A stretch of 64,000 nt of DNA, taken from a plasmid. The stretch lies in the sequence record NZ_CP086424.1, one strand, 5' to 3'. Below, piece after piece: positions 18,075-19,436 of this stretch (position 1 is its first letter; every line of letters starts with the position of its first letter). The notes beneath the pieces are model-generated. The model ran no database searches. It had not been told where the DNA came from and worked only from the letters and a program-made list of their open reading frames with translations. The translations under genes were made by a program, and so were the position numbers.

Positions 18075-18115
18075 ACGGCTTCCTTTAACCAGGGAGGGCG
18101 CTAACTCTCTTTGCT

Positions 18116-19436
18116 AGCGCTGCCCTGATTGGTAAAAATCATTAAGTTAAGGTGGATACACATCTTGTCATATGATCAAATGGTTTCGCGAAAAATCAAT
18201 AATCAGACAACAAGATGTGCGAACTCGATATTTTACACGACTCTCTTTACCAATTCTGCCCCGAATTACACTTAAAACGACTCAACAGCTTAACGTTGGC
18301 TTGCCACGCATTACTTGACTGTAAAACTCTCACTCTTACCGAACTTGGCCGTAACCTGCCAACCAAAGCGAGAACAAAACATAACATCAAACGAATCGAC
18401 CGATTGTTAGGTAATCGTCACCTCCACAAAGAGCGACTCGCTGTATACCGTTGGCATGCTAGCTTTATCTGTTCGGGCAATACGATGCCCATTGTACTTG
18501 TTGACTGGTCTGATATTCGTGAGCAAAAACGACTTATGGTATTGCGAGCTTCAGTCGCACTACACGGTCGTTCTGTTACTCTTTATGAGAAAGCGTTCCC
18601 GCTTTCAGAGCAATGTTCAAAGAAAGCTCATGACCAATTTCTAGCCGACCTTGCGAGCATTCTACCGAGTAACACCACACCGCTCATTGTCAGTGATGCT
18701 GGCTTTAAAGTGCCATGGTATAAATCCGTTGAGAAGCTGGGTTGGTACTGGTTAAGTCGAGTAAGAGGAAAAGTACAATATGCAGACCTAGGAGCGGAAA
18801 ACTGGAAACCTATCAGCAACTTACATGATATGTCATCTAGTCACTCAAAGACTTTAGGCTATAAGAGGCTGACTAAAAGCAATCCAATCTCATGCCAAAT
18901 TCTATTGTATAAATCTCGCTCTAAAGGCCGAAAAAATCAGCGCTCGACACGGACTCATTGTCACCACCCGTCACCTAAAATCTACTCAGCGTCGGCAAAG
19001 GAGCCATGGGTTCTAGCAACTAACTTACCTGTTGAAATTCGAACACCCAAACAACTTGTTAATATCTATTCGAAGCGAATGCAGATTGAAGAAACCTTCC
19101 GAGACTTGAAAAGTCCTGCCTACGGACTAGGCCTACGCCATAGCCGAACGAGCAGCTCAGAGCGTTTTGATATCATGCTGCTAATCGCCCTGATGCTTCA
19201 ACTAACATGTTGGCTTGCGGGCGTTCATGCTCAGAAACAAGGTTGGGACAAGCACTTCCAGGCTAACACAGTCAGAAATCGAAACGTACTCTCAACAGTT
19301 CGCTTAGGCATGGAAGTTTTGCGGCATTCTGGCTACACAATAACAAGGGAAGACTTACTCGTGGCTGCAACCCTACTAGCTCAAAATTTATTCACACATG
19401 GTTACGCTTTGGGGAAATTATGAGGGGATCTCTCAG
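18116..19436 (+). mobile_element. IS10 (IS4 family) copy with truncated/damaged outside end
   Basis: The inside end GAAATTATGAGGGGATCTCTCAG is intact at 19414-19436. The outside end begins ...CTGATTGGTAAAAATCATTAAG and lacks the canonical terminal GAATCCCCTAATGATTT. A full-length transposase is present. Confidence 0.8.
18215..19423 (+). CDS. IS10 transposase (402 aa)
   Basis: MCELDILHDSLYQFCPELHLKRLNSLTLACHALLDCKTLTLTELGRNLPTKARTKHNIKRIDRLLGN... Confidence 0.95.
   Translation: MCELDILHDSLYQFCPELHLKRLNSLTLACHALLDCKTLTLTELGRNLPTKARTKHNIKRIDRLLGNRHLHKERLAVYRWHASFICSGNTMPIVLVDWSDIREQKRLMVLRASVALHGRSVTLYEKAFPLSEQCSKKAHDQFLADLASILPSNTTPLIVSDAGFKVPWYKSVEKLGWYWLSRVRGKVQYADLGAENWKPISNLHDMSSSHSKTLGYKRLTKSNPISCQILLYKSRSKGRKNQRSTRTHCHHPSPKIYSASAKEPWVLATNLPVEIRTPKQLVNIYSKRMQIEETFRDLKSPAYGLGLRHSRTSSSERFDIMLLIALMLQLTCWLAGVHAQKQGWDKHFQANTVRNRNVLSTVRLGMEVLRHSGYTITREDLLVAATLLAQNLFTHGYALGKL

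What the first reader, a model, noticed from the sequence alone, without database searches (positions are those of the whole stretch)
18075..18215. IS10 remnant lacking its outside-end tip sits 46 bp upstream of qnrA with its outward promoter pointing into the gene
The IS10 copy keeps an intact inside end and transposase. At the outside end the canonical terminal about 17 bp (CTGATGAATCCCCTAATGATTT...) is missing or altered, so the copy is probably immobile. IS10 carries an outward-directed promoter (pOUT) near this end, and here it is oriented toward qnrA on the minus strand. This is a plausible hybrid promoter driving qnrA expression.
Basis: inference. Interest (0 to 1): 0.55.

Follow-up and report, generated by a model that had tools for sequence, protein, structure and literature searches.

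The report
Locked IS10 promoter upstream of qnrA
A standard IS10 insertion sequence sits 50 bp in front of a plasmid-borne quinolone-resistance gene (qnrA), with its known outward promoter pointing into the gene and a 17-bp internal deletion that probably immobilises it, which is an ordinary kind of insertion-sequence gene activation, not found described for qnrA in the literature I could search and not confirmed by any transcript data.

Summary
The sequence facts are real, but the anatomy needs correcting.

- **Element.** The element at 18125-19436 is canonical IS10: 0 mismatches in 1312 bp and an identical 402-aa transposase. It is flanked by a perfect 9-bp target duplication, AGCGCTGCC.
- **Deletion.** The outside-end tip (CTGA/T) is present. 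What is missing is 17 bp inside the terminal repeat (IS10 nt 5-21 or 6-22), which includes the published transposase-binding determinants (bp +6 to +13).
- **Not an artefact.** The same junction and deletion occur in five other assemblies. They are absent from every other IS10 end searched.
- **Orientation.** RNA-OUT (Rfam, 98.8 bits) lies on the qnrA strand. pOUT fires toward qnrA from 148 nt upstream of its ATG, and no terminator-like site lies between them.
- **Displaced native region.** The insertion moves a conserved Shewanella upstream block, the likely native promoter, 1.3 kb away.
- **ISCR1.** ISCR1 supplies the promoter in classical qnrA1/qnrA3 units. Here its end is 3.6 kb away, across IS10 and genes on the opposite strand.
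- **Context.** A 6.6-kb Shewanella algae-group segment sits in a complex class 1 integron on an IncC plasmid.

Most likely, pOUT read-through drives qnrA. This is a complete promoter, not a hybrid one. That functional step is inferred; no transcript data were available. Verdict: new member of a known kind, modest interest.

The parts
17418..18074 (-). qnrA coding sequence (218 aa). It differs from the QnrA3 of pEcNDM1 by V54I and R161H.
   Evidence: ORF list. NCBIfam QnrA family, 514 bits against cut-off 450. 99.2% nt identity to plasmid qnrA3. Amino-acid differences.
18075..18115 (-). Remaining native leader (41 bp). It holds the Shine-Dalgarno AAAGGAAG (18079-18086) and half of a GC-rich palindrome (GCGCTAGC...GTTAGCGC). 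No -10-like element is present.
   Evidence: Sequence. Identical in the native chromosomal loci L004 and L005. Promoter scans negative.
18116..18124 (.). Left copy of the 9-bp target-site duplication AGCGCTGCC.
   Evidence: A single copy is present in the empty sites (L001, L004, L005).
18125..19436 (+). IS10 with a 17-bp internal deletion in the outside-end inverted repeat (1312 bp). The outside end faces qnrA. The deletion junction is at 18128/18129 or 18129/18130.
   Evidence: 0 mismatches against the canonical 1329-bp IS10 of pKpn33002 once nt 5-21 or 6-22 are removed. Alignment. The same junction is present in L003 and L006-L009.
18153..18222 (-). RNA-OUT antisense RNA gene. Its 5' end (18222 = IS10 nt 115) is the pOUT start site, 148 nt upstream of the qnrA ATG on the same strand.
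   Evidence: Rfam RF00240, 98.8 bits (gathering score 41), E = 6.3e-21, model positions 1-70 of 70. [quoted passage not shown]
18230..18235 (-). Probable pOUT -10 hexamer TAAAAT, placed 7 nt upstream of the RNA-OUT 5' end.
   Evidence: Position inferred from the sequence and the Rfam-defined 5' end. The sequence is identical to reference IS10. The hexamer assignment is my inference, not a tool result.
18215..19423 (+). IS10 transposase gene, intact (402 aa).
   Evidence: ORF list. Identical to the reference protein. NCBIfam IS4 family, 404 bits.
19411..19436 (-). Intact IS10 inside end (CTGAGAGATCCCCTCATAATTTCCCC).
   Evidence: Exact match.
19437..19445 (.). Right copy of the 9-bp target-site duplication AGCGCTGCC.
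19446..19662 (-). Displaced native upstream region of qnrA. It holds a non-coding block conserved across Shewanella species, including the palindrome AAATCGCGATTT at 19564-19575. It is preceded by a terminator-like hairpin at 19648-19662. This is the likely native promoter/operator, now 1.3 kb further from qnrA.
   Evidence: Alignment of eight native loci. Terminator-like site. The promoter role is inferred.
21660..23433 (-). ISCR1. The oriIS end (...CTTCCTATACC) is at 21660 and the transposase gene at 21892-23433. It bounds the captured Shewanella segment, with its end about 3.6 kb from the qnrA ATG.
13744..21659 (.). Captured Shewanella algae-group chromosomal segment (6.6 kb without the IS10): prfH', rtcB, three small ORFs, qnrA, an SBP gene, trmO, and the 5' stump of a 975-aa gene. 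It lies between ISCR1 and a second sul1 copy.
   Evidence: 99.95-100% identity to chromosomal contig L004 over 13744-18124 and 19437-21659. Gene families.

Best explanation
**Shown by sequence.** A normal IS10 transposed into the qnrA leader of a Shewanella algae-group DNA segment. It made the usual 9-bp duplication, 41-50 bp upstream of the start codon, with its outside end facing the gene. That segment now sits next to ISCR1 in a complex class 1 integron on an IncC plasmid. After insertion, a 17-bp deletion inside the outside-end inverted repeat removed the transposase-binding determinants but left the tip. It also left the IHF region, pIN, pOUT, RNA-OUT, the transposase gene and the inside end untouched.

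**Inferred from published IS10 biology and the anatomy.**
- The insertion separates qnrA from its conserved native upstream region.
- pOUT starts 148 nt upstream of the ATG on the qnrA strand. A fraction of its transcripts run past the RNA-OUT 3' end (IS10 nt 47) and across the shortened IS end into qnrA.
- This gives constitutive expression. IS10 thereby does the job that the ISCR1 POUT promoters do in classical qnrA1/qnrA3 units, where ISCR1 lies only 31-103 bp from the ATG.
- The deletion makes this IS10 copy unable to form a paired-ends complex by itself, so the promoter-gene junction is fixed.
For: **Structure.**
- 1312/1312 identity to IS10 apart from the 17-bp gap, and an identical transposase.
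- Perfect duplication, with empty sites in a qnrA3 plasmid and in chromosomes.
- The identical junction is seen in five other assemblies, including one built from raw reads.

**Orientation and integrity of pOUT.**
- Full-length RNA-OUT lies on the minus strand.
- The region is identical to reference IS10.
- No terminator-like site lies on the minus strand between 18222 and 18075.

**Loss of other promoters.**
- The conserved upstream block lies 110-230 bp upstream of the ATG in native loci, distal to the insertion site.
- No -10-like element is left in the 50 bp retained.
- The ISCR1 end is about 3.6 kb away across three ORFs on the opposite strand and a terminator-like hairpin. In other qnrA units ISCR1 abuts at 31, about 85 and about 103 bp.

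**Literature.**
- Pout transcripts extend into neighbouring genes at about 10% of PlacUV5, and IS10 activates acrEF (PMC9330008; PMC4574204).
- ISCR1 promoters express qnrA in complex integrons (PMC8876359).
- bp +6 to +13 are the primary transposase-binding determinants, and an inside end cannot form a paired-ends complex alone (PMC3159471).

**Persistence.**
- 22 of the 24 contigs read that carry this exact QnrA have the IS10 junction. This includes a variant that has lost ISCR1 (L006, L008).
Against: - There are no transcript or MIC data, so promoter use is entirely inferred.
- RNA-OUT normally ends at nt 47 and only a minority of transcripts read out, so expression might be low.
- The simple sigma-70 scan does not even detect pOUT, because its -35 is poor. 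Sequence scans are therefore weak evidence either way.
- No minus-strand terminator-like site was found inside IS10. Transcripts from the displaced native promoter could therefore also reach qnrA.
- Immobility was not tested, and a second IS10 outside end elsewhere in the cell could pair with the intact inside end.
- The prevalence of the junction may reflect clonal spread of one plasmid lineage rather than selection.
Confidence: 0.62

Rival explanations
1. IS10 is a neutral passenger. qnrA is still transcribed from its native promoter in the displaced block (about 19446-19647), by read-through across the whole IS10 antisense to the transposase gene.
For: The conserved block is intact and correctly oriented. 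No minus-strand terminator-like site was found within 18125-19436.
Against: It requires 1.3 kb of untranslated antisense transcription facing pIN-driven transcription, which I would expect to be prone to Rho termination (general knowledge, not tested). pOUT is much closer and is documented to read out.
Confidence: 0.14
2. The insertion lowers or silences qnrA expression. The module spreads only by hitch-hiking with the other resistance genes of the integron and the IncC plasmid.
For: The native upstream region is displaced. RNA-OUT normally terminates at nt 47. Many other resistance genes are co-located.
Against: Outward read-through from IS10 is well documented. The junction is retained in a rearranged variant lacking ISCR1. 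The qnrA ORF is intact in all copies.
Confidence: 0.12
3. One reading: a hybrid promoter, with a -35 in the altered IS10 end and a -10 in the flanking DNA, drives qnrA.
For: Hybrid promoters are common for other insertion sequences (review PMC9330008). The deletion brings new IS sequence next to the flank.
Against: No -35/-10 pair with 15-19 bp spacing spans the junction, even at a relaxed threshold. The deletion destroys one weak candidate (TTAACT-16-AATCAT) and creates none. The flank has no -10-like hexamer.
Confidence: 0.06
4. The ISCR1 POUT promoters drive qnrA, as in classical qnrA1/qnrA3 complex integrons.
For: ISCR1 is in the same orientation as qnrA. Its promoters express qnrA elsewhere.
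Against: The ISCR1 end is about 3.6 kb away. In between lie three opposite-strand ORFs, a terminator-like hairpin at 19648-19662 and the whole IS10. ISCR1 promoters are reported to be weak. The L006/L008 variant keeps IS10-qnrA without ISCR1.
Confidence: 0.03
5. The 17-bp gap is a sequencing or assembly artefact and the IS10 end is really intact.
For: It lies in an A/T-rich palindromic stretch with a T run.
Against: The identical junction is present in the window and in five other assemblies from different projects, including a complete replicon and a Logan assembly of raw reads.
Confidence: 0.02

Closest known systems
IS10/Tn10 pOUT read-out activating adjacent genes (Ciampi 1982; Simons 1983; acrEF activation in Salmonella, Olliver 2005; cat activation in pSU vectors, PMC4574204)
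   Same: The element, the promoter and the geometry are the same. The outside end faces the gene, and RNA-OUT/pOUT are on the gene's strand a short distance upstream of the start codon.
   Different: The target here is qnrA inside an ISCR1 unit. I found no report of this among the papers I could search. The IS10 copy also carries an internal 17-bp deletion in its outside-end repeat, which none of the other IS10 ends searched has.
ISCR1-qnrA1 / ISCR1-qnrA3 complex class 1 integrons (In36/In37-type; pEcNDM1)
   Same: The layout is sul1-ISCR1-[Shewanella DNA with qnrA]-sul1. The ISCR1 oriIS end is identical. A mobile-element promoter replaces the native one just upstream of qnrA.
   Different: The captured segment is 6.6 kb rather than roughly 1-2 kb. 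ISCR1 abuts 2.27 kb of native DNA away from qnrA, rather than 31-103 bp. The nearby promoter donor is IS10, not ISCR1.
IS copies that supply a resistance-gene promoter, such as ISEcp1 upstream of blaCTX-M or ISAba1 upstream of blaOXA
   Same: An IS-borne promoter sits next to a resistance gene captured from an environmental progenitor. My recollection, not checked here, is that truncated immobile ISEcp1 remnants that keep the promoter are common.
   Different: Here the IS did not mobilise the gene; ISCR1 or the integron context did. The inactivation is a small internal repeat deletion rather than truncation by another element.

Membership tests
IS10 (IS4 family) | DDE transposase of 402 aa, identical or nearly identical to IS10R | tested here: met
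   402/402 identical to the pKpn33002 copy. NCBIfam IS4 family, 404 bits against cut-off 152.
IS10 (IS4 family) | Intact inside-end terminal repeat | tested here: met
   Exact 26-nt match at 19411-19436.
IS10 (IS4 family) | Intact outside-end terminal repeat (bp 1-23, including the transposase-binding bp +6 to +13) | tested here: not met
   nt 5-21 or 6-22 are deleted; only CTGA(T) of the tip remains. This is therefore an IS10 derivative that is probably not autonomous.
IS10 (IS4 family) | 9-bp target-site duplication | tested here: met
   AGCGCTGCC on both sides, with a single copy in empty sites.
IS10 (IS4 family) | RNA-OUT antisense RNA near the outside end | tested here: met
   RF00240, 98.8 bits, full length.
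QnrA quinolone-resistance pentapeptide repeat protein | Score above the curated QnrA family cut-off over the full length | tested here: met
   NF000071, 514.3 bits against 450, residues 1-218 of 218. Resistance itself was not tested.
ISCR1 complex class 1 integron | ISCR1 downstream of a 3'-CS/sul1, a variable region at the oriIS end, and a second sul1 copy | tested here: met
   sul1 at 23838-24764 and 12724-13650, ISCR1 at 21892-23433, oriIS junction at 21659/21660, intI1 and cassettes at 25182-30840.
IS-derived hybrid promoter | A -35 hexamer in the IS end correctly spaced from a -10 hexamer in the flanking DNA | tested here: not met
   No such pair at relaxed thresholds or in the tool scan.
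IS outward-promoter read-through activation | Complete outward promoter intact, oriented toward the gene, with no intervening terminator | tested here: met
IS outward-promoter read-through activation | Gene transcript actually starts at the IS promoter, and expression depends on it | not testable with these tools
   Needs 5'-RACE, RNA-seq or reporter fusions.

The most novel reading that the evidence does not exclude
The IS10 insertion and the later 17-bp deletion were both selected. On this reading, ISCR1 captured an unusually long Shewanella fragment in which qnrA was too far from ISCR1's promoters to be expressed well in Enterobacterales. The IS10 insertion supplied a constitutive promoter, and a 5' RNA-OUT stem-loop that might also stabilise the chimeric mRNA. 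The deletion then 'domesticated' the IS by abolishing excision and transposition, and removed the A/U hairpin (IS10 nt 15-36) from the leader. That would be a stepwise, datable example of how a progenitor gene becomes a functional mobile resistance gene.
Probability: 0.2. Interest if true: 0.5.

Novelty: new member of a known kind. Interest (0 to 1): 0.33.

Why it matters
IS10 read-out activation and ISCR1-mediated qnrA capture are both textbook, so no new principle is at stake. The value is epidemiological and illustrative.

- This appears to be a separate mobilisation of qnrA from a Shewanella algae-group chromosome. The segment is 99.95-100% identical to a sequenced strain over 6.6 kb, and it sits on an IncC multiresistance plasmid.
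- I did not find this junction among the 72,556 plasmid records (PLSDB), the 5,426 complete E. coli genomes or the papers I could search.
- If pOUT is the working promoter, the unit shows that the promoter-replacement step in the emergence of a mobile resistance gene can be done by a different element from the one that mobilised the gene.
- A tiny deletion can then freeze that arrangement.
- The exact junction (GCGCTGCC|CTGATTGGTAAAAATC) is a convenient marker for tracking this lineage.

Tried and rejected
Rejected. The intact 9-bp duplication is followed by CTGA, which is not native sequence.
- **Sequencing artefact.** Rejected. The same junction occurs in five other assemblies.
- **A circulating IS10 variant with this end.**
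  - No copy was found among about 2,480 IS10 outside ends in PLSDB or about 4,090 in complete E. coli genomes.
  - The exact-pattern scans of 185,579 species-representative genomes and of JGI metagenomes also found none.
- **Hybrid or new promoter created by the deletion.** Not found.
- **The deleted hairpin as an intrinsic terminator.** RNA folding shows that the deletion removes an A/U hairpin from the read-through leader. The hairpin is not followed by a U tract, so I make no claim that it terminates transcription.
- **Literature.**
  - Searches for qnrA with IS10, ISVsa5 or rtcB found no description of this junction.
  - Kim 2011 (cold-shock induction of qnrA), Olliver 2005 and Martinez-Garcia 2003 are not held, so I could not check the native transcription start or OUTIIp details.
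- **Allele name.** The exact-sequence cluster look-up did not find this protein, so the qnrA allele number is not assigned.
- **Rfam.** The scan of 17900-19900 found only RNA-OUT. No known RNA family lies in the native leader or the conserved block.

Full report
**1. What is at the coordinates**

The interval 18075-18215 lies between two divergent genes.
- On the minus strand, 17418-18074 encodes a 218-aa QnrA-family protein. It scores 514 bits on NCBIfam NF000071 against a cut-off of 450. It is 99.2% identical in DNA to plasmid qnrA3 and differs from the QnrA3 of pEcNDM1 by V54I and R161H.
- On the plus strand, 18215-19423 encodes a 402-aa IS4-family transposase.

**2. Anatomy of the insertion sequence**

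I took a canonical 1329-bp IS10 from plasmid pKpn33002 as the reference. An oligonucleotide in PMC2705183 confirms that the IS10R outside end reads CTGATGAATCCCCTAATGATTTTGG.
- The window element spans 18125-19436 (1312 bp).
- Removing reference nt 5-21 or 6-22 (the two are indistinguishable) gives 0 mismatches in 1312 bp and an identical transposase.
- The inside end is exact.
- The element is flanked by a perfect 9-bp direct repeat, AGCGCTGCC, at 18116-18124 and 19437-19445.

Uninterrupted 'empty sites' carry one copy of that 9-mer followed by TATGCAGG. They are seen in the qnrA3 plasmid pEcNDM1, in two chromosomal loci with the same QnrA allele (L004, L005), and in nine further chromosomal contigs, including a 4.8-Mb chromosome.

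The CTGA(T) after the left repeat is therefore the genuine IS10 tip. The lesion is a 17-bp deletion inside the terminal repeat, made after a normal transposition event.

**3. The deletion is real and inherited**

- The exact QnrA protein is indexed in 67 blocks of the assembly collection.
- Of the 24 contigs read, 22 (five shown plus 17 similar) carry IS10 upstream.
- The five I aligned have the identical junction and the identical deletion. They include a 171.8-kb replicon that is 100% identical to the window over 12.7 kb, a 132-kb replicon, and an assembly built from raw reads.
- No other IS10 end has this form. This holds for PLSDB, 5,426 complete E. coli genomes, 185,579 species-representative genomes and JGI metagenomes.
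- It is therefore a private mutation of this qnrA-linked copy, not an artefact and not a circulating IS variant.

**4. Context**

- The backbone is IncC.
- The resistance island is Tn21/Tn1696-like. It carries mer genes, tni genes, two sul1 copies, intI1 and the cassettes dfrA-arr-cmlA-blaOXA-10-aadA1.
- Between ISCR1 (oriIS end at 21660) and the second sul1 copy lies 6.6 kb that is 99.95-100% identical to a chromosomal contig. That contig carries the typical Shewanella algae-group qnrA neighbourhood: prfH, rtcB, three small ORFs, qnrA, an SBP gene and trmO.
- The representative genomes of S. carassii, S. indica and S. chilikensis are only 71-92% identical over the aligned parts of this segment. 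I could not verify the species name of the closest donor.
- ISCR1 abuts Shewanella DNA at different points in different units: 31 bp upstream of the qnrA ATG in L013, about 85 bp in pEcNDM1, and about 103 bp in L014. Here it abuts 2.27 kb of native DNA away, plus the 1.31-kb IS10.
- This is therefore a distinct capture event with an unusually long insert.

**5. Promoter geometry**

- Rfam finds a complete RNA-OUT at 18153-18222 on the minus strand, the qnrA strand (98.8 bits, E = 6e-21).
- The pOUT start (IS10 nt 115 = 18222) is 148 nt upstream of the qnrA ATG.
- The whole pIN/pOUT region is identical to reference IS10.
- RNA-OUT is reported to terminate at nt 47 (PMC5006887).
- A review citing Simons et al. 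1983 states that some Pout transcripts extend into neighbouring genes at about 10% of PlacUV5. The same review notes that IS10 activates acrEF (PMC9330008; see also PMC4574204).
- No terminator-like site lies on the minus strand between the pOUT start and qnrA.
- A relaxed -35/-10 scan finds no hybrid promoter across the junction and no promoter in the 50 bp of retained flank. The deletion creates none.

**6. What the insertion displaced**

- An alignment of native qnrA upstream regions from eight Shewanella loci shows a strongly conserved non-coding block 110-230 bp upstream of the ATG. It includes the palindrome AAATCGCGATTT and is conserved even in species whose QnrA is only 80-83% identical.
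- A terminator-like hairpin lies just upstream of this block.
- This is the best candidate for the native promoter/operator. It now sits at about 19446-19647, separated from qnrA by the whole IS10.
- In the classical ISCR1 units this block is also lost, and ISCR1 promoters are reported to express qnrA (PMC8876359).
- Here the ISCR1 end is about 3.6 kb away, across IS10 and three ORFs on the opposite strand. IS10 occupies the position relative to qnrA that ISCR1 occupies elsewhere.
- A rearranged variant (L006, L008) has lost the ISCR1 side but keeps IS10-qnrA.

**7. Consequence of the deletion**

- Published work identifies bp +6 to +13 as the primary determinants of transposase binding and +7 to +23 as the footprint. 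The IHF site extends to +42, and an inside end cannot form a paired-ends complex without an IHF-bound outside end (PMC3159471).
- The deletion removes +5/6 to +21/22. By inference, this copy cannot transpose or excise through its own ends, although it still encodes the transposase and RNA-OUT.
- RNA folding shows that the deletion also removes an A/U hairpin (IS10 nt 15-36) from any read-through leader. That hairpin lacks a U tract, so I make no claim about an effect on expression.

**8. Verdict**

- Structure: firmly established.
- Function: the most likely mechanism is read-through from the complete pOUT promoter, not a hybrid promoter, with the IS locked in place by the deletion. This step is inferred, at about 0.6 confidence.
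- Rivals: read-through from the native promoter across IS10, reduced expression with hitch-hiking, a junction promoter, and ISCR1 promoters.
- Novelty: a new member of a well-known kind (IS10 read-out activation inside an ISCR1 complex integron). It has modest interest as a marker and as an illustration of stepwise emergence of a mobile resistance gene.

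Noticed in passing
window 13744-21659 with 21660-24764 and 12724-13743: Apparently independent ISCR1 capture of qnrA with an unusually long (6.6 kb) Shewanella algae-group segment. It is 99.95-100% identical to a sequenced chromosome. The ISCR1 junction lies inside a 975-aa chromosomal gene, whose 79-aa stump is at 21428-21667. This differs from the 31, about 85 and about 103-bp junctions of other qnrA units.
   Followed up: partly
window 19446-19662 (palindrome AAATCGCGATTT at 19564-19575; hairpin 19648-19662, minus strand): A non-coding block upstream of qnrA is conserved across Shewanella species, including distant ones. It contains a perfect 12-bp palindrome and is preceded by a terminator-like hairpin. 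It is a candidate native promoter/operator of qnrA, or of the divergent SBP gene. It has no Rfam match.
   Followed up: partly
window 25182-26012 (minus strand): The aadA1 cassette is split into two ORFs: the N-terminal 154 residues at 25494-26012 and the C-terminal 77 residues at 25182-25415. This is a frameshift or pseudogene, or a sequencing error.
   Followed up: no
L006 and L008, about 3099 (equivalent to window 20976): In this variant of the unit, the Shewanella segment is cut inside trmO and joined to IncC transfer-region genes (TraC_F_IV, DsbC_N). ISCR1 and the integron side are absent, but the IS10(deleted)-qnrA junction is retained.
   Followed up: partly
window 3628-4632 (-) and 34757-35761 (+): Two identical-scoring IS110-family transposase genes (IS4321/IS5075-like) lie in inverted orientation at either side of the mer/integron/Tn3-family island. 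My recollection, not checked here, is that this pattern is typical of insertions into Tn21-family terminal repeats.
   Followed up: no
window 19300-19436 facing 19818-20576 (+): The IS10 inside end points at the SBP_bac_3 gene. According to PMC11481808, the IS10 promoters pIII and OUTIIp lie in nt 1000-1230 and read out of the inside end. The SBP gene may therefore also receive IS10-derived transcription.
   Followed up: no
window 18095-18124 and native loci: The IS10 target (GGCAGCGCT on the qnrA strand) matches 4 of the 6 specified positions of the NGCTNAGCN consensus, as I recall it. It overlaps a small GC-rich palindrome (GCGCTAGC...GTTAGCGC) in the qnrA leader.
   Followed up: no
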